DNA of 64,000 nucleotides, taken from the IMG/VR virus record IMGVR_UViG_3300009788_000006, positions 18,022-82,021 of that record. One strand, 5' to 3'. The notes under the pieces are model-generated. The model was given only the letters and a program-made list of their open reading frames with translations. It was not told the DNA's origin and made no database searches. The DNA comes from a virus. Below are positions 31,706 to 49,400 of the stretch, in pieces; the stretch's first letter is position 1, and every line of letters begins with the position of its first letter. The position numbers and the translations under genes are program-made.

Positions 31706-31987
31706 TATTTTCTATCCTTGTCTGGATCGTAGGGGAATCGGTCATCTGGAATAAGATGCGCCCACGCTCCGCCGCTGTTGCCAGCGGTCCAGGTGCAACC
31801 GTGCGTAGAACAGCGAAAAGTGGGTCGCGGCGGGGTCTTTGATATAGTCGTCCCCGACGTACTCTGCTCCCGAGCTCTGATGTCGGCTACAAGTGTTCAG
31901 CTTCATTGGAACCCACTCCTGGGAGCAAGATCGAGATGCCAAGGCAAAGGATGATGAATCCTGCGAATTGAGACCTGTAGCGCTTCG

Positions 31988-40861: not shown

Positions 40862-41130
40862 AGAGCATCCGAGACATCCTCCGGCCGGCCGCCTTGGCCG
40901 AACTCAACCGCGACGGTCGCCGGCATCGTCTCGCCCGCATCTGGCGCGAGTACCACGGCCTCACCAACGAGGAGGCCGCAGCGATCTGCGGCGTGGAGCC
41001 CTACAGCTTCAGCCGCTTTGGGACCCACCGACAGCGACCGGAAGCGGGGCGGCTGGTGGCCAAGGGGATCGGGCTCGACAGCAGCACCCGGCCGTGGAAG
41101 GCGGCGGTCGCTGGCACCATCCTAGCGTAG
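40858..41130 (+). CDS. XRE-like HTH protein
   Basis: WREYHGLTNEEAAAICGVEPYSFSRF. Confidence 0.7.
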   Translation: MKSIRDILRPAALAELNRDGRRHRLARIWREYHGLTNEEAAAICGVEPYSFSRFGTHRQRPEAGRLVAKGIGLDSSTRPWKAAVAGTILA

Positions 41131-41186
41131 CTCAGACGGCAGAGCGCTCGGAGAGGTCGCGGGTTCGAGCCCCGCCGGACCTACCA
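41121..41186 (+). ncRNA. tRNA-like element lacking the anticodon arm (pseudo-tRNA or mimic)
   Basis: TA-GCTC-AGACGGCA-GAGC D arm, CTC-GGA-GAG mini-hairpin, GCGGG-TTCGAGC-CCCGC T arm, ACCA; acceptor stem mostly unpaired. Confidence 0.7.
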
Positions 41187-42494: not shown

Positions 42495-42571
42495 TGGTGG
42501 CCCCGGCGGGATTCGAACCCGCAATAACCGGATTTTGAGGCCGGCGCCTTTTCCGTTTAGACCACGGAGCC
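42495..42571 (-). tRNA. tRNA with CAA anticodon (Leu), short variable loop
   Basis: GGCTCCG/CGGGGCC acceptor, CCGGC-CTCAAAA-TCCGG, TTATT variable loop, ACCA. Confidence 0.85.
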
Positions 42572-42667: not shown

Positions 42668-42742
42668 TGGTAGACCCCTTCGGATTCGAACCGAAAATCT
42701 TCAGATCCTAAATCTGACCGTTGCCATTTAGCCTAGAGGTCC
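42668..42742 (-). tRNA. tRNA with TAG anticodon (Leu), short variable loop, weak D stem
   Basis: GGACCTC/GGGGTCT (G1-U72), TCAGA-TTTAGGA-TCTGA, TTCGG-TTCGAAT-CCGAA, ACCA. Confidence 0.8.
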
Positions 42743-43725: not shown

Positions 43726-44116
43726 CCCGCCCCAGGGCTTCTTGCAGAAAGCAGAAGCCGACATTGCTGCCTAGCCACTGAATCATCGTGGCGACTAACC
43801 GGCGTTCTCGTCGAGTCAGCGGCAATTCGAATCCCGGCATGTTCTTCATCAGCATGTCGGGTAAAGACCGCGGGCGATGTTCGTGATAGCCCTGGTCGTT
43901 CTCTGCCCGCCACTGTTCGGCGAAGGCGCGCTCGAGAAGCGCGTGCTCGCTCCAGGTTCGACGTTCGAAGTATCCAACGTGTTCATCTGACGCCTGACAG
44001 TCGTGCGCCCAGGGCATTCCGTCAACGCGCTTGGCAACATCTTTGCCGCACCGAGGGCAGCTAATGCGCTTTAGTGGGCCGCCTTGGCGGGCGGTTGCTG
44101 TAGAATCTGTGCTCAT
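43703..44116 (-). CDS. Hypothetical protein
   Basis: ATMIQWLGSNVGFCFL motif; AAGGAGG RBS. Confidence 0.7.
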   Translation of the reverse strand: MSTDSTATARQGGPLKRISCPRCGKDVAKRVDGMPWAHDCQASDEHVGYFERRTWSEHALLERAFAEQWRAENDQGYHEHRPRSLPDMLMKNMPGFELPLTRRERRLVATMIQWLGSNVGFCFLQEALGRDGYRIEQ

Positions 44117-44138
44117 CGTTCGATCCTCCTTGATCGTT

Positions 44139-44183
44139 CGGTGGTGGGTCGCTGGCTCTTCACCGGCCAGCGGCCCGATTATA
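44139..44183 (-). repeat. Promoter plus 5'-leader hairpin repeat, copy 1
   Basis: TATAATCGGGCCGCTGGCC...GCCAGCGACCC-ACCACCGA; second copy at 45791-45840. Confidence 0.75.
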
Positions 44184-44197
44184 GCACGCGGTAGTAG

Positions 44198-44674
44198 CTA
44201 GGTGCCGGCCGGAAAGTTAGCGACGGTGAGCACCAGCCCGCGGCAGAAGATCTCACCGTCCTCCATGATGTTGAACGCTGCCCCGCCGACGCCTTCTGCC
44301 GTGATCAGCCAGGACTCGCCGGACGGTGGGCACCACGTCGACTCGATCTTGACGGCGTTGCGTCGAGCAGCAAGCCAAGGTTCTACCGCCGCCACCACCT
44401 GGTCGTCGCTTGCCCAGTCGTCGAGCTCGCCGCTTACCTCGCTCCAAGGCCGACAAGGTCCGGCACGTCCCAGCAAGAAAGATCCCGGGCCGCCCACCTC
44501 TTCGCGGTCGACTCCATAGATCTCGACGAGATCATCGGAGGCTCCGCAGATCACGAAGAGGTCGGCGCCTTTCCACGCCTCCTGGTCTTGTCGGGACGGA
44601 TTGAAAGGGTACGCCGCTCCGTCGAGGGCGGCGGCCACGGTTGCGGCAGTGATAAGATTCTCAGTGTCGGGCAT
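44198..44674 (-). CDS. Conserved phage protein (GASDDL motif)
   Basis: VICGASDDLVEIYG...FNIMEDGEIFCRGLV. Confidence 0.75.
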   Translation of the reverse strand: MPDTENLITAATVAAALDGAAYPFNPSRQDQEAWKGADLFVICGASDDLVEIYGVDREEVGGPGSFLLGRAGPCRPWSEVSGELDDWASDDQVVAAVEPWLAARRNAVKIESTWCPPSGESWLITAEGVGGAAFNIMEDGEIFCRGLVLTVANFPAGT

Positions 44675-44736
44675 CGGTGTCTCCTCGTAGACGTTGATGT
44701 GGCGGGTTGCGGTCTCAGCCGCTGCCCGTCTTCCGA

Positions 44737-45222
44737 CTATAGCACATTCTGCCCGGACAGAACGGCATCCCTGTTCGAAGCCTCTGCTATCTCTTGAGCT
44801 CTTTCTTCATTTCGCCGCCTAGTGCCGAGATCAGCCGTTGCTGGCACTTTCGCCCCGTGGACTAGAGCGTCAACGGCCGCCAGGTTCCATCGCGGAGTCC
44901 AGCGGATTACGATCGCCACCGCCCGGCCATGGACCAAGGCGCGGACACGGTTCTCTACCGAACCCGAAGGACCGCCGGTCGCCACTCTTTCGGCTGAACC
45001 CTGGCAGTCGGTCCACGCGGTCACAGAATCCGGACCGAGCTGGAGAGCTGCCAGGATGCCTCTCTCCAGCGCCCCGAGCTCGGCAACGTCGCTGGAAGCT
45101 CGCGGGGCAAGGCGCAGGCCGTGAGAAATCACCGCCCCGTCTGAGTCGCGGACGATGAACGCGGTATAGGCATTGCGCCCAACGGTGCCCGCATCCACGT
45201 CCACATGTAAGTCAGCAGTCAT
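44737..45222 (-). CDS. RNase H-like (RNase HI fold) protein
   Basis: VDVDAG, DVAELGAL, WTDCQ, IRWTPR..AAVDAL give the D-E-D-D catalytic set. Confidence 0.8.
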   Translation of the reverse strand: MTADLHVDVDAGTVGRNAYTAFIVRDSDGAVISHGLRLAPRASSDVAELGALERGILAALQLGPDSVTAWTDCQGSAERVATGGPSGSVENRVRALVHGRAVAIVIRWTPRWNLAAVDALVHGAKVPATADLGTRRRNEERAQEIAEASNRDAVLSGQNVL

Positions 45223-45442
45223 GATGTACTGCCGGTAGCTCCTCCAGCCGCTTGCAGTGGTCCCAAATCAGCTCGCCCAGAGTAGGGAGACTGACTCCCC
45301 ACTTGCGAGCCAGGCCACCGAAGGTCAGGCCGCGCGTGTGGATCTCGTGGCAGAGGATCTCGCCGAAGCTTGCGCCGCAATCGGTTGGGTGGTCAGCGTA
45401 CTGCCGCTCGATCTCGTCGCGGAATATCTCCAGAAATGCCAT
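45212..45442 (-). CDS. Small HTH-like protein
   Basis: GLTFGGLARKWGVSLPTLGELI. Confidence 0.55.
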   Translation of the reverse strand: MAFLEIFRDEIERQYADHPTDCGASFGEILCHEIHTRGLTFGGLARKWGVSLPTLGELIWDHCKRLEELPAVHHDC

Positions 45443-45490
45443 TGCTTCACAGGTCTTCGCGGTGCTGAAGCTGATGGGGCGAGATGGCCA

Positions 45491-45778
45491 TCACAGCTTG
45501 CCGTACTGAGCATCCAGCGGATTATCCCAGCCGGCCGCTAGAGAGTCGGCCGAGGACAGCGCCGCTTGCTCGACAATCCGTTCGTGCTCTTGCTCGATGA
45601 GCTCTTGCTCTGAAAGGTCGCGTGGCGCTTCTCTTTCCGGGTGACCTTCGCGAAAGAAGTTGGCGATCATTTCCGGCGTCTGAGGCCAGCGGTTGGCTTC
45701 GCCGAACCACTCGCCGCCGTCTGCGTCCTTGAACCCGTGCCAGATGAGGTCCGGCCAGTCGCTATGTCTGGGGTTCAT
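45491..45778 (-). CDS. Hypothetical protein
   Basis: Follows repeat copy 2. Confidence 0.6.
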   Translation of the reverse strand: MNPRHSDWPDLIWHGFKDADGGEWFGEANRWPQTPEMIANFFREGHPEREAPRDLSEQELIEQEHERIVEQAALSSADSLAAGWDNPLDAQYGKL

Positions 45779-45790
45779 AAGGCTTCTCGA

Positions 45791-45840
45791 TCGGTGGTGA
45801 AGGGCTGCTGGCTAATTCACTGGCCAGCGGCCCGATTATG
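45791..45840 (-). repeat. Promoter plus 5'-leader hairpin repeat, copy 2
   Basis: CATAATCGGGCCGCTGGCC...GCCAGCAGCCC..ACCACCGA. Confidence 0.75.
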
Positions 45841-45844
45841 CTAA

Positions 45845-45918
45845 GAGGGCGGGGTCGGACTCGAACCGACATTTCCCCGTTAGAGGCACATGCCCATTAC
45901 CATGTTGCTCTCGCCCTC
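45845..45918 (-). ncRNA. Cloverleaf tRNA mimic without a canonical anticodon arm
   Basis: GAGGGCGAG/CCCGCCCTC closing stem, ACATG-GTAATGGG-CATGT, CCTC-TAAC-GGGG, GTCGG-TTCGAGT-CCGAC; TGaTATAGT 7 nt upstream. Confidence 0.7.
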
Positions 45919-45931
45919 GACTCCGACTATA

Positions 45932-46264
45932 TCACACCGCCACCCCCAACAGAATCAGGCTCTTCTCAAATCCCCGGCGCCCGCCCTTGAGTTTCGACTC
46001 CACCACCAGATCAAGCGCTTCGCCTAGCCGTTCCTGGAGCTCGACCGCAATCACCAGATCTTCGACCGTAGATACGGCAACACCCATCCGAATTGCTACC
46101 GGCTTGAGTAGATCTTCATCATCCTCAAAAAGTCGGTAAGCCAACCGCGTCAGAGTGCCCGGCAATCCCCGCCTGCCAGTCCGCCGGGCATTGCCCACCA
46201 ATGCTCGAACCGCCTCGATTCTTTCAGCTGAGTCAACGCCGGCGCTTTCCAGGCGTGTGCTCAT
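45932..46264 (-). CDS. Hypothetical protein sharing its C-terminal 24 aa with the tail protein
   Basis: Ends VVESKLKGGRRGFEKSLILLGVAV. Confidence 0.6.
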   Translation of the reverse strand: MSTRLESAGVDSAERIEAVRALVGNARRTGRRGLPGTLTRLAYRLFEDDEDLLKPVAIRMGVAVSTVEDLVIAVELQERLGEALDLVVESKLKGGRRGFEKSLILLGVAV

Positions 46265-46443
46265 GGCTTGGCCTCTTCAGCTCTGATCGTGATTTTCCCC
46301 TCCGGGGTGATCGTCACCTCGACCGAGTGGCCGAGATATGCAAACTGATAGGGATGTGTGCCACAGAGAGTCTCGGTCAGGTCTTCCAGAGTTTCGCAGC
46401 GGAACACCTCGGACTCCAGCGCCTGTAGTGGTCCTTCGTGCAT
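46261..46443 (-). CDS. Hypothetical protein
   Basis: Coupled between the tail gene and the 45932 gene. Confidence 0.55.
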   Translation of the reverse strand: MHEGPLQALESEVFRCETLEDLTETLCGTHPYQFAYLGHSVEVTITPEGKITIRAEEAKP

Positions 46444-46444
46444 C

Positions 46445-49400
46445 CTACACCGCTACTCCCAGCAAGATCAAGCTCTTCTCGAACCCGCCCCGGCCGCCCT
46501 TGAGCTTTGACTCCACCACCACCCCGCGCACCTCCCCGCCCTCGACACCCGGCGCAACGACCGCGATGATCGTTCCCGCGGGCGTTGCCGTCAGCCAGTC
46601 GGAAGTCACCAGCGTGTACTTCCGCGGCGCCCGGCCCAACTTGGTGGCCAGCGATGCCGCCGAGGTGGCTGCGGCGGACAAGCTCACGAACGCGGCATCG
46701 TAGCGGGCTTCGCGGCTCGAGAGCAGGTAGGTATTCGTGGCGCCGGCGATCTCGCGGCGCTGATAGCGAATCGGCTTCTGGACGAATCCGCGCCGCTCAT
46801 CATCAGCACCCAACAGCGGGTCGGGCTGCACCAGGCCGATGAGGTCGAAGCCGACGGACGCTGCCCAAGGTGGATCGGACCGTGCCCCCATCTGGATGGT
46901 TTGCAGAGCGCGGTCGTCGTTGATGGTCACCGTCGCCGTGGCCGTCGTCAGATCCTCAAAGGCCGTCCAGGTAGCCAGGCCCGCTTCGCCGTCCCAGACG
47001 ATCCAGCCCTCCGGCATGCGCAGCAGATCGATGACGTCCTGGACGGCCTGGTCACCGGCCATAGGGAGGCCGCGTGGCTCGTCCGGGAGGTCGACAGCAG
47101 CTGAGAGATCTTGCTGCGCGTCCGTCATGCCAGCCCGAAGGACCAGCGCATGGGCGGCAATGCATGGCATGTTTCCGACCGGGACCGGCTTGTTCCATTC
47201 ACCAGAGGTCACTACGAGGTCTTGCCCTCCAGTTGCTCCGGTATCAGGCCATACTGCCGGGTCAACATCTACACCAGCCTCTGACCAGCGATGCTCTGCC
47301 GCGCCTCCTGTTGGAGCAAAGTCGGGATCGACGAACAGCTCAAAGACTTCGGCGGCGGTCAGAACAGAATCATGAAGTTGGTTTTCGTTTGTGATCGTAT
47401 CCCGTAAGAATGTGGCAGGCGTTTGAATGCCGAAAGTCAAGTCCGTTGTCGGCGTCGACAGCTGCCCGGAAATAGCCGTGGTGTTTTTTAGAATTCCATT
47501 GATATAGATCTTAAGCTCTACGTTCGACGCGTCAATCTCGTCGGCCGTCACAGCCCAAAAATAGGGCTGTTCGAACGGGGTTGTAGCGACCGCGGTGTCG
47601 GTAGTTGACGTAGTTTCTAGACTAGCCGTTAATTGAGCCTCTCCTAAAATATTGAGCATGTTCAAAGACGCAAATTCGCTTGTAAACAATCTCCCGTCTG
47701 CTGTGGTCGCTGTTGTGAAAACCCATCCAGATAGGGTGTAACCCGATGTCAGAATAGAGCTGAAAGTAGCGTTAGAATCTGCCCAGGTCGCGGAGCCGTC
47801 GTAATGCATCCCGTGATCCCAGAAGCTCTCCCCCCAGGTATCACAGGTCACGGCTGCGGATGGCGCTGTGCCGAATCGGATATACTGCGCGTTCGTGGTA
47901 TACTTCCCGGCCCCCACAGCCGTCTGAAAGAAGTCCATCAGGTTGTCGATCTGGCCGCTGGTATCGAGCGCGACAACCGTGGCGCCGTCGAAGACGCCGG
48001 TCAGTGGGCCAGCGGTGTTCTCGGAGTTCGACCACATGAGGAAGTCGCTGAAGGCTTGTACGCCTGAAGCCACCGCCGAGCTGTGGACGTTCTTGGCCAG
48101 CCCGTAGGACACCGGGGGGCGCGTCCCCGCGAGCGTGACGCCGCCCTGGAGCCCGTGCGCTACGGCCGCTTCGGTGGTCGTGATCTCGGTTGCTTCGGCC
48201 ACGGACGTCGGGGTAGCGCCAGCGTCCAGCGGGTGAGCAAACCAGGTATCCCCGGTCGAGTCGATATCGTCGCTCCACTCGAAGGTCACGCCCGCGTCGT
48301 TCTCGGTCAGGCGTCGGCGGATCAGCGCGGTCCGGACGTCGTTGTCGGCGGGGAGCACCCCGGTACCGACGCCGATGGCGATCTGCGAAACGATGCCCTC
48401 GAAGAGCAGCGTATTACCCGGCGGATCAGCCCCTATCGTGAGCTGAGTCGCCGTCGCGGTGTAGGCGCCTGTTACCGAGCCCGTGGCCGAGCCCGCGGTC
48501 ATTGGGCGGGCACGATCCGACCAGTTCATCAGAAAGCCTTGAAGGGTGTTGGCCGTGGTGTCGAACTCGAAACGCGCCGAGTACCAGTTCTCGAGCCGGG
48601 GGACCGCCGGAGTCGACGCCTCGAACTTCACCGAATTGATATGGATGAACATCGTGAAGACCAGAGCTGAAGAATCGAAAGTGACGCCGTATGAGCCCCC
48701 GTCTGCCAAGGCAATCGCCCCGTTCGCGATGATGTAATGGTGTTTTGTCTGCCCGCGGTACTGCTCGGGAATGAACACTCTGCCGATCTGGATCACCATG
48801 TGATCCGATGCGCCGGGGTCGAGCCCCGCGGGCCGCGCTGAGTCCGTGTGGTAGTAGGCGCCGGCGTCGAACAAGATCGCGGCTCCGAATCCCGCGTACG
48901 GGAGCGCCAGCGGCTGCGTCCAGCCGATCACCGGCGGACGGACACCCAAGGTCAAGCGGTTGTTGGCCAGGTCGACGTGCTCGCTGTCTGTCAGCCCGTC
49001 CTTGAACAGGTAGCCAGGGGACGCCCACGTCACCCGGGAGCCGTCTTGCAGCGCACCGGTATAGCGGAGCTCGGCAGTCCGCCCGCTGGCGCTGTAGGCC
49101 ATGTAGGTCGCGGCAATCGACCGCGGCGTCTCGGGATGGGTCAGGATCTTGGCATCGTCCGACCAGCCGCCGGACGGAGCCGCGGGCCAGAACGGCAGCG
49201 CGGCGATCACGCCCGACCCGTTGGCGGTCGTGTCCTCGAGCACCACCCGCCACGCTTTTGGGCCGTCACCGGCGACGTGGAAGCGGTCGCCGCGGTGGAT
49301 GATGTGATTGGCTGGCAGCCCGTCACACGCCAGGGTGTAGACATCGGCCGAGACCGCGCCGTTGATCAACCCGCCGGCGCGGTGGAAGCCACCGAGGTCG

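What the first reader, a model, noticed from the sequence alone, without database searches (positions are those of the whole stretch)
45845..45931. Self-promoted cloverleaf RNA with its anticodon arm replaced by a UAAC mini-hairpin
Seen: an extended -10 (TGaTATAGT) sits 7 nt before a 74-nt cloverleaf. It has an 8/9-bp closing stem, a 5-bp D-like arm, a 4-bp CCTC-TAAC-GGGG hairpin, a perfect T arm with TTCGAGT loop and no CCA. All four stems pair, which argues against random decay. Inference: a tRNA elbow mimic that could act as a decoy for tRNA-targeting defences (anticodon nucleases, tRNA-modifying toxins) or be an RNase P/Z substrate.
Basis: partly seen in the sequence, partly recalled or inferred. 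Interest (0 to 1): 0.7.

Follow-up and report, generated by a model that had tools for sequence, protein, structure and literature searches.

The report
Leucine tRNA relic lacking anticodon arm
A phage carries a leftover of a leucine tRNA gene that kept its top half and side arm but lost the part that reads codons, so it is most likely a decaying gene or a simple structured leader rather than a new kind of decoy RNA.

Summary
The sequence is real. It lies on the minus strand (45845-45918) in a 153-nt gap between two small genes of an 82-kb phage with terminal repeats.

Standard finders reject it. Default ARAGORN and the Rfam gathering threshold miss it, and Rfam tRNA scores 18.7 bits against a cut-off of 29.

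Its acceptor stem and T arm match ordinary long-arm (class II) bacterial tRNA-Leu genes: 31 of 32 positions against their consensus, 32 of 32 against one of them. A tRNA-Leu covariance model aligns the "UAAC mini-hairpin" to the variable arm and deletes 13 anticodon-arm positions. So the anticodon arm is missing, not replaced.

The element also has A8, U73, a weak D stem and no CCA. All four real tRNAs of this phage encode CCA.

The promoter reading holds up. TGnTATA(A/G)TCGG occurs three times, all on this strand, each at a gene boundary within 1.8 kb.

I found no homologue in any collection searched, and no population variant in the one run laid.

Best reading: a non-decoding tRNA-Leu relic at the 5' end of a transcript. 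The untouched top half beside a changed D region (p about 1e-4 to 8e-4) leaves some room for a retained role.

The scan noted this same stretch once before in an overlapping window. It has not noted it on other DNA.

The parts
45923..45934 (-). Extended -10 promoter-like box TGATATAGTCGG. Its TGA is the stop codon of the upstream 110-aa frame.
   Evidence: Sequence. The motif TGNTATARTCGG has 3 exact copies in the window, all on the minus strand (45934, 44744, 44186), each at a gene boundary. With up to 1 mismatch there are 5 matches, against a shuffle mean of 0.56, and 0 of 100 shuffles reach 5.
45845..45918 (-). The whole 74-nt element: a tRNA-Leu-derived body (45845-45916) plus 2 extra closing pairs, G-C and A-U, made by bases -2/-1 with positions 74/73.
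   Evidence: Rfam tRNA 18.7 bits. Relaxed ARAGORN gives 72 nt. tRNA-Leu model R1 gives 36.2 bits.
45910..45916 (-). 5' acceptor strand GGGCGAG.
   Evidence: Identical to the first 7 bases of all 8 tRNA-Leu genes fetched.
45888..45909 (-). Degenerate D region (A8, G9, weak D stem, D-loop remnant AUGGUAA), followed by GGGCAUGU where the anticodon arm should begin. It can also fold as the hairpin ACAUG/CAUGU.
   Evidence: R1 alignment: 11 of 19 D-region positions match the tRNA-Leu consensus and 2 of 3 D-stem pairs are kept. Hairpin pair probability 0.99.
45875..45886 (-). Mini-hairpin CCUC-UAAC-GGGG, read here as the remnant of the class II variable arm.
   Evidence: R1 aligns it to the variable-arm positions and deletes 13 anticodon-arm positions, with posterior of only 0.3-0.5. 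MAFFT puts it opposite the variable arms of 6 tRNA-Leu genes, among them phage XbC2 tRNA-Leu(TAA), which reads GCC-TGTAAC-GGGC there.
45854..45870 (-). T arm GUCGG-UUCGAGU-CCGAC.
   Evidence: Perfect stem; identical in all 8 tRNA-Leu genes. Pair probability 0.99 for 4 of 5 pairs.
45846..45853 (-). 3' acceptor strand CCCGCCC plus discriminator U. It is followed by CUU, not CCA.
   Evidence: The A6.C67 mismatch is shared with the genuine tRNA-Leu genes L016 and L022.
45802..45840 (-). CATAAT box plus a hairpin or palindrome, GGGCCGCTGGC...GCCAGCAGCCC. It is a second copy of the unit at about 44146-44186, where the box reads TGCTATAAT.
   Evidence: BLAST within the genome: 83% over 53 nt. An exact 18-mer occurs twice. 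Sequences; fold.
45491..45778 (-). Downstream 95-aa frame, the first gene the element's transcript would reach.
   Evidence: ORF list. Third-position GC is 0.72. No Pfam or PHROG hit.
45932..46264 (-). Upstream 110-aa frame. Its last 24 codons repeat the end of the 1122-aa frame.
   Evidence: Translation. Its only relative among 5.8 billion proteins is itself.

Best explanation
The element is what remains of a class II (long variable arm) tRNA-Leu gene.

**Anatomy**
- It keeps the acceptor stem, the T arm, a short variable-arm hairpin and the GG-bearing D-loop.
- It has lost the anticodon arm; about 13 positions are missing.
- Its D stem is weakened, and it carries A8 instead of U8 and U73 instead of A73.
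- It has no encoded CCA.
- It therefore cannot decode. By the published identity rules for bacterial LeuRS it is a poor candidate for charging.

**How it most likely works (inferred, not shown)**
- Transcription starts about 7 nt after the TATAGT box, at the foot of the 9-pair closing stem.
- The relic is then the 5'-terminal folded domain of the mRNA for the 95-aa gene and its followers.
- The two neighbouring copies of the same promoter box are likewise followed at once by a 5' hairpin.
- The relic either stays there as a 5' end-protecting structure, or RNase P / RNase Z-type enzymes that recognise the acceptor/T-arm half clip it off.

**My odds**
- Derived from tRNA-Leu: about 0.85.
- Not a decoding tRNA: about 0.9.
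- Any selected role at all: about 0.35.
For: **Origin from tRNA-Leu**
- A scan of 185,579 species genomes with the 3' 21-mer (one Y) gave 14 loci. In 8 of them the match lies in a tRNA, and all 8 are class II tRNA-Leu. Six are from MAGs titled Chloroflexota or placed in its classes (5 UAG carrying the match, plus L012 UAG) and 2 are cyanobacterial (CAA). All 8 begin GGGCGAG like the element.
- L016 and L022 share even the A6.C67 mismatch.
- Model R1, built from these 8, scores the element at 36.2 bits. It deletes 13 anticodon-arm positions and places the hairpin on the variable arm.
- MAFFT agrees on the hairpin's place, and phage XbC2 tRNA-Leu(TAA) has a similar variable arm.

**Not a working tRNA**
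- Rfam tRNA scores 18.7 bits, below the cut-off of 29. Default ARAGORN is silent.
- The only anticodon stem on offer has two G.G mismatches.
- The four real tRNAs and the other relic all encode CCA; this one has UCUU.
- LeuRS of A. aeolicus needs A73 (A73U drops activity 45-fold) and U8-A14 (PMC2377443, passages read).

**Decay is at work in this genome**
- A second tRNA relic at 41124-41186 has a 3-nt gap in its acceptor strand and an anticodon arm collapsed to 7 nt.

**Promoter and leader**
- Three exact copies of the box lie at successive gene boundaries.
- All three inferred leaders start with a hairpin, with z-scores of -2.2 to -2.3 for the two short ones.

**Standard genetic code**
- TAG ends 25 of 112 crude gene calls, and coverage under table 11 is 87%.
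Against: **Uneven change argues against plain neutral decay**
- 32 of 32 acceptor and T-arm positions equal a living tRNA-Leu (L016), and 31 of 32 equal the consensus.
- Only 11 of 19 D-region positions match.
- One-sided Fisher p = 1.2e-4 or 8e-4.
- This fits selection on the top half, or a single patch-like event, better than even decay.

**Other points**
- The two extra closing pairs, and the start of the stem exactly 7 nt after the -10 box, look tidy for a dead gene.
- The middle of the R1 alignment has low posterior (0.3-0.5), so 'hairpin = variable arm' is the best alignment, not a certain one.
- R1's seeds were chosen for sharing the element's 3' 21-mer, so its score is inflated by construction.
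- The 5'-leader role rests on an inferred start site.
Confidence: 0.6

Rival explanations
1. A selected, anticodon-less tRNA-Leu mimic. The phage keeps the acceptor/T-arm half, the elbow and the variable arm so that the RNA binds a host factor that recognises tRNA-Leu shape. That factor could be a tRNA-cleaving defence nuclease, a modification enzyme, LeuRS or RNase P. The RNA would soak the factor up without entering translation.
For: - The top half is untouched (32 of 32) while the D region is changed (11 of 19), p about 1e-4.
- It has its own promoter box.
- The closing stem is lengthened by 2 pairs.
- The anticodon arm of tRNA-Leu is dispensable for LeuRS aminoacylation in A. aeolicus (PMC2377443 abstract).
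- In S. coelicolor, A73 is not an identity element (PMC6614811).
- tRNA mimics without an anticodon exist in bacteria and phages: YrlA (PMC4201824 abstract).
Against: - No relative with this layout turned up in IMG/VR, JGI metagenomes or the species genomes.
- A8, the weak D stem and the thermodynamically disfavoured hairpin make a tRNA-like elbow doubtful.
- The phage has no tRNA-related partner gene.
- The neighbours have no informative family.
- A second, clearly broken tRNA relic in the same genome shows that loss of anticodon loops happens here without design.
Confidence: 0.15
2. A scar of an old attachment site. A temperate ancestor integrated into a host tRNA-Leu gene. The perfect 3' part is the attP copy of the tRNA end, and the 5' part was picked up by faulty excision.
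For: - A 22-nt stretch of the T arm and 3' strand is 100% identical to the feature annotated 'trnL-like' in Aeromonas phage phiO18P, E = 0.05 (H14 and H16).
- Identity to host-type tRNA-Leu is perfect in the 3' 25 nt.
- The adjoining 513-bp cassette with a duplicated gene end shows recombination at this spot.
Against: - The 82-kb genome has no tyrosine or serine recombinase.
- An attP needs only the 3' part, yet the 5' acceptor strand and the D-loop are present at the right spacing.
- The discriminator and CCA, which attP copies normally keep, are changed.
Confidence: 0.07
3. A working but odd short-variable-loop tRNA with anticodon CUA, that is an amber suppressor, as relaxed ARAGORN reads it.
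For: - ARAGORN at the 95% threshold calls a 72-nt 'tRNA-Pyl(cta)' with loop CU-CUA-AC, which has U33 and A37.
- The 1122-aa frame upstream ends in TAG.
Against: - The anticodon stem has 2 G.G mismatches among 5 pairs, the D stem has 2 good pairs, and the variable loop has 3 nt.
- The score is below every curated threshold.
- The same relaxed setting adds one other doubtful call. At 80% it gives 110 calls in 82 kb.
- TAG ends 25 of 112 crude gene calls, and the genome is 87% covered under the standard code.
- There is no CCA, unlike the phage's real tRNAs.
Confidence: 0.03

Closest known systems
Bacterial class II tRNA-Leu (Rfam RF00005 tRNA), for example the UAG isoacceptors of the Chloroflexota MAG loci L010-L020 and the cyanobacterial CAA isoacceptors L022 and L023
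   Same: Acceptor stem, including the A6.C67 mismatch of L016 and L022. The UGU junction, the T arm, a hairpin at the variable-arm position, and the D-loop AUGG.
   Different: No anticodon arm, A8 for U8, U73 for A73, a weak D stem, no CCA, and 72 nt instead of 82-88. Scores 18.7 bits, below the Rfam cut-off of 29.
tRNA relics or pseudogenes in phage genomes, such as the second one in this genome at 41124-41186
   Same: A tRNA-derived stretch with good T arm whose anticodon loop has been lost. Lies between genes.
   Different: The other relic keeps a perfect D arm and ACCA, but its 5' acceptor strand is broken. Here both acceptor strands are intact, and D arm and the 3' end are changed.
YrlA-type Y RNAs (Rfam RF02553; Chen et al. 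2014, PMC4201824; abstract and outline seen)
   Same: A non-decoding RNA with a tRNA-like domain. Also encoded by some phages, and a substrate of tRNA enzymes.
   Different: YrlA genes lie near Ro60, and this phage has no TROVE/Ro60 gene. RF02553 is not among the 5 Rfam matches at E up to 10. From memory, not tested here: in YrlA the RNA ends lie in the Ro-binding stem, not in the acceptor stem.
tRNA-Leu-type attP sites of temperate phages (feature 'trnL-like' of Aeromonas phage phiO18P, hits H14 and H16)
   Same: A 22-nt exact match over the T arm and 3' acceptor strand.
   Different: The element also has the 5' half of the tRNA. No integrase was found in the genome.
Laboratory tRNA-Leu variants without anticodon arm (A. 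aeolicus LeuRS study, PMC2377443; abstract and passages seen)
   Same: The same idea of a tRNA-Leu body that lacks the anticodon arm. The abstract states that the arm is dispensable for aminoacylation.
   Different: Those variants keep A73, U8-A14 and CCA. This element lacks all three.

Membership tests
tRNA (Rfam RF00005; ARAGORN) | Score at or above the curated threshold | tested here: not met
   18.7 bits against a gathering score of 29. Not reported by default ARAGORN or by Rfam at gathering score.
tRNA (Rfam RF00005; ARAGORN) | Anticodon arm: 5-pair stem and 7-nt loop | tested here: not met
   The best candidate stem has 2 G.G mismatches. The tRNA-Leu model deletes 13 of its positions.
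tRNA (Rfam RF00005; ARAGORN) | 7-pair acceptor stem and 5-pair T stem with a UUCGAnU-type loop | tested here: met
   Acceptor 6 of 7 pairs, with the same A.C as the genuine genes L016 and L022. T arm perfect.
tRNA (Rfam RF00005; ARAGORN) | Encoded 3' CCA, as in every other tRNA of this phage | tested here: not met
   The 4 real tRNAs and the relic at 41124 end in CCA. The element is followed by CUU.
Leucine-accepting tRNA (bacterial LeuRS identity set as given in PMC2377443) | Discriminator A73 | tested here: not met
   U at 45846. The paper reports a 45-fold loss for A73U. In S. coelicolor A73 is not required.
Leucine-accepting tRNA (bacterial LeuRS identity set as given in PMC2377443) | U8-A14 tertiary pair and a folded D/T elbow (G18-U55, G19-C56) | tested here: inconclusive
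   Position 8 is A. GG is present in the D-loop remnant and the T loop is intact, but tertiary folding cannot be tested with these tools.
Leucine-accepting tRNA (bacterial LeuRS identity set as given in PMC2377443) | Long variable arm in the proper place | tested here: inconclusive
   A 4-pair hairpin aligns there. Alignment posterior is 0.3-0.5 and ensemble pair probability is 0.005.
YrlA / bacterial Y RNA (RF02553) | Match to the family model, and a Ro60 (TROVE) gene nearby | tested here: not met
   No RF02553 match at E up to 10. No TROVE domain in the phage genome.
attP of a tRNA-integrating phage | An integrase gene in the genome, and identity limited to the 3' part of the tRNA | tested here: not met
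   No match to PF00589 or PF00239. The 5' acceptor strand and D-loop are also present.
Sigma-70-type extended -10 promoter | TGnTATAAT-like box upstream of a gene, in the gene's orientation | tested here: met
   TGATATAGT matches 8 of 9. Three exact copies of TGNTATARTCGG lie on the coding strand at gene boundaries. The generic two-hexamer scan did not list it.
Sigma-70-type extended -10 promoter | A mapped transcription start | not testable with these tools
   No RNA data could be laid on the site.

The most novel reading that the evidence does not exclude
The phage deliberately keeps an anticodon-less tRNA-Leu body, made of acceptor/T-arm half, elbow and variable arm, under its own promoter. 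Its job would be to act as a sponge or decoy for a host factor that recognises tRNA-Leu by shape, for instance a tRNA-Leu-cleaving defence nuclease or LeuRS. The second anticodon-less relic in the same genome would then be an older or alternative copy of the same strategy.
Probability: 0.13. Interest if true: 0.65.

Novelty: new member of a known kind. Interest (0 to 1): 0.3.

Why it matters
If it is a relic, it mainly helps annotation. It shows how a phage tRNA gene dies, by loss of the anticodon arm first. It also shows that relaxed tRNA finders can turn such a relic into a false 'amber suppressor / tRNA-Pyl' call.

It also marks a small promoter family, TGnTATA(A/G)TCGG followed by a 5' hairpin, in an otherwise orphan subsurface phage.

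Only if the intact top half proves to be under selection would it bear on a wider question: whether phages use non-decoding tRNA bodies against tRNA-directed host defences.

Tried and rejected
**Searches for relatives**
- The phage GenBank collection gave no match with 1.1 kb around the site at E 1e-5.
- With the 74-nt element alone at E up to 10 there were only short, weak matches: 156 records, best E 0.05, and 0 covering 80% of the query.
- IMG/VR gave 0 stretches for the exact 3' 21-mer and 0 for the gapped acceptor-to-T-loop pattern.
- JGI metagenomes gave 0 for that gapped pattern and 0 for a 5'-half-to-T-loop pattern.
- These tools say that records of the window's own genome may be left out.
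- A search for the variable-arm-plus-T-stem pattern (up to 3 mismatches) in 401 genomes of the phylum of L016 found 0 matches. This means not found in those searched, not absent.

**Neighbouring proteins as anchors**
- The 110-aa and 1122-aa proteins have only themselves among 5.8 billion proteins, in the length ranges searched.
- The 1122-aa protein has no IMG/VR relative.
- The terminase found one distant phage at 41% identity (L003), which has no tRNA match at all.

**Expression and population data**
- Expression: no RNA holder listed. One DNA run of a subsurface metagenome, possibly the source of the record, holds the stretch.
- Population variants: the one run is kept as contigs. One 39-kb contig is identical across 44000-47500, and no variant lies in the element.

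**Readings considered and dropped**
- Chance cloverleaf: rejected because of the identity to tRNA-Leu.
- tmRNA or permuted tmRNA: no Rfam match at the site.
- A permuted-core tRNA, with the D-loop after the anticodon arm as in earlier notes of this scan: the hairpin ACAUG/CAUGU has an 8-nt loop GUAAUGGG without the U33/R37 pattern, so I dropped it by inspection only.
- Intrinsic terminator: none found in 44000-48000.
- Stop-codon recoding: not needed.

Supplementary files of the papers were not consulted.

Full report
**Where and what**

The window is bases 18022-82021 of an 82,021-bp virus record with direct terminal repeats, rated complete. The record encodes a terminase, a portal, a DnaB-type helicase and other phage proteins. 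The only sequencing run that holds it is a subsurface metagenome.

The finding lies on the minus strand. It sits in the 153-nt gap between the stop of a 110-aa frame (45932-46264) and the start of a 95-aa frame (45491-45778). Third-position GC supports the flanking minus-strand frames: 0.72 for the 95-aa frame, against 0.51 in the gap.

**The observation**

TGATATAGT (45934-45926) overlaps the TGA stop of the 110-aa frame.

The standard tools are cool towards it:
- Default ARAGORN finds four tRNAs in the window and none here.
- Rfam at gathering score finds five tRNA matches and none here.
- In E-value mode the Rfam tRNA model gives 18.7 bits against a cut-off of 29. E is 0.4 for the 601 nt searched and 0.013 for the whole phage genome.
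- ARAGORN at its 95% threshold calls a 72-nt 'tRNA-Pyl(cta)'. Its anticodon stem has two G.G mismatches and its D stem two good pairs. At 80% the program 'genes' in 82 kb, which shows how little a relaxed call means.

- The MFE is -31.3 kcal/mol (z = -2.6), and 4 of 200 shuffles fold as well.
- In the ensemble the T arm, the outer six closing pairs and the ACAUG/CAUGU hairpin are near certain.
- The mini-hairpin pairs have probability 0.005.
- As a control, two of the phage's four real tRNAs also fail to give a full cloverleaf as their MFE fold, so this counts only weakly.

**What it comes from**

I scanned one genome for each of 185,579 prokaryote species with the 3' 21-mer, allowing C or T at the position opposite A6. 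This gave 14 loci.
- In 8 loci the match lies in a tRNA gene. All 8 are class II tRNA-Leu: six UAG isoacceptors from MAGs titled Chloroflexota or placed in its classes, and two CAA isoacceptors in cyanobacteria.
- In the other 6 loci no tRNA lies at the match, and they look like coding-sequence coincidences.
- All 8 begin GGGCGAG like the element and share UGUCGGUUCGAGUCCGACC.
- Two of them (L016, L022) share even the A6.C67 mismatch.

I built a covariance model from these 8 genes (R1). It scores the element at 36.2 bits, E about 2e-6. It aligns the acceptor stem and T arm perfectly and keeps two of three D-stem pairs. It deletes 13 positions of the anticodon arm and lays GUGCCUCUAACGGGGAAA on the variable arm.

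Two cautions apply to that result:
- The seeds were picked for sharing the element's 3' end, so the score is inflated.
- The posterior in the middle is only 0.3-0.5.

Independent support is modest. In the phage GenBank collection the longest match (35 nt, 85.7%, E 0.2) is to tRNA-Leu(TAA) of Xanthomonas phage XbC2. It covers the mini-hairpin plus the T arm. In a MAFFT alignment the element's GCC-UCUAAC-GGGG stands opposite that gene's variable arm GCC-UGUAAC-GGGC.

I therefore read the mini-hairpin as the variable arm and the anticodon arm as lost, not replaced.

**Why it is not a working tRNA**
- There is no anticodon arm.
- Position 8 is A and the discriminator is U.
- The sequence runs on as CUU. 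The phage's four real tRNAs and its other relic all encode CCA.
- In A. aeolicus the anticodon arm of tRNA-Leu is dispensable for aminoacylation. A73, U8-A14 and the elbow pairs are critical, and A73U costs 45-fold (PMC2377443, abstract and passages).
- In S. coelicolor A73 is not an identity element (PMC6614811, passages), so charging cannot be excluded outright.
- The amber-suppressor reading fails on structure. It is also not needed: a crude gene call covers 87% of the genome under the standard code, and TAG ends 25 of 112 genes.

**Surroundings**

The box TGNTATARTCGG occurs exactly three times in the window, at 45934, 44744 and 44186. All three are on the minus strand within 1.8 kb, and each lies at or just after a stop codon and before the next gene. 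With one mismatch allowed there are 5 matches, against a shuffle mean of 0.56, and no shuffle of 100 reaches 5. The generic two-hexamer promoter scan did not list them.

The leaders inferred for the other two boxes begin with a hairpin at the first or second base. The leader of this box begins with the tRNA relic.

Right after the relic comes CATAAT plus a palindromic hairpin. This is a weakened second copy of the unit at 44186, where the box reads TGCTATAAT.

Upstream, the last 24 residues of the 110-aa frame repeat the end of the 1122-aa frame, 23 of 24 identical.

The phage has none of the following:
- a tyrosine or serine recombinase;
- a CCA-adding enzyme, RtcB or Ro60.

The nine neighbouring proteins give only an RNase H-like hit, a zinc-finger hit and two PHROGs of unknown function.

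**Decay or design?**

For decay:
- The element stands alone. No copy, full-length or truncated, was found in IMG/VR, JGI metagenomes or the species genomes.
- The genome holds a second, plainly broken tRNA relic at 41124-41186. Its anticodon arm is collapsed to 7 nt and its 5' acceptor strand has a 3-nt gap.

For some constraint:
- 32 of 32 acceptor and T-arm positions equal a living tRNA-Leu, and 31 of 32 equal the consensus.
- Only 11 of 19 D-region positions match. One-sided Fisher p = 1.2e-4, or 8e-4.
- The closing stem has gained two pairs and starts where the promoter box predicts the transcript to start.

Putting these together, I commit to a non-decoding tRNA-Leu relic that now forms the 5'-terminal structure of a phage transcript. 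I give about one chance in three that this structure is kept for a reason such as 5'-end protection or an RNase P/Z cleavage site.

**Comparison and verdict**

It works like, and is derived from, class II tRNA-Leu. It fails the membership tests for a tRNA gene on score, anticodon arm and CCA. It is not a YrlA RNA and not an attP site by the features I could test.

It is a new member of a known kind, a phage tRNA relic, with one mildly puzzling trait: the untouched top half. Interest is low to moderate.

Noticed in passing
window 41124-41186 (+): A second tRNA relic. It scores 30.4 bits on Rfam tRNA, just over the cut-off. It has a perfect D arm, a perfect T arm and an ACCA end. Its 5' acceptor strand lacks 3 nt and overlaps the TAG stop of a 90-aa frame. 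Its anticodon arm is reduced to 7 nt (CUCGGAG).
   Followed up: partly
window 42495-42571 (-) and 42668-42742 (-): The phage's tRNAs with leucine anticodons CAA and UAG have short variable loops (type I shape), though bacterial tRNA-Leu is almost always type II. The CAA one still scores 52.4 bits on the tRNA-Leu model with its 12 variable-arm positions deleted. A type I tRNA-Leu(CAA) is described for Streptomyces coelicolor (PMC6614811), which may hint at the host.
   Followed up: partly
window 45932-46520 (-): The 1122-aa frame ends ...VVESKLKGGRGGFEKSLILLGVAV-TAG. The 110-aa frame about 510 nt further on ends ...VVESKLKGGRRGFEKSLILLGVAV-TGA in the same reading frame. So a cassette holding a 60-aa and most of the 110-aa frame seems to have been inserted into the gene's 3' end.
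   Followed up: partly
Among 5.8 billion proteins its only relative is itself. The 'tail' label is unsupported.
   Followed up: partly
window 44146-44186 (-) and 45802-45840 (-): A repeated unit: a -10 box (TGCTATAAT or CATAAT) directly followed by GGGCCGCTGGCC...GCCAGC..CCC. The palindrome overlaps the expected start site, so it could be an operator as well as a 5' hairpin.
   Followed up: partly
window 31840-31851 (+): TGATATAGTCGT is a one-mismatch copy of the promoter box, on the plus strand. I did not look at its context.
   Followed up: no
window 45990-46140 (-), inside the 110-aa frame: By eye, the stretch ...LLKPVAIRMGVAVSTVEDLV... resembles a helix-turn-helix motif. No family search hit it.
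   Followed up: no
L023 1346-1746 (+), a Synechococcus MAG: ARAGORN calls a tmRNA whose 3' end coincides with the tRNA-Leu(CAA) gene. This is probably a false tmRNA call built on the tRNA.
   Followed up: no
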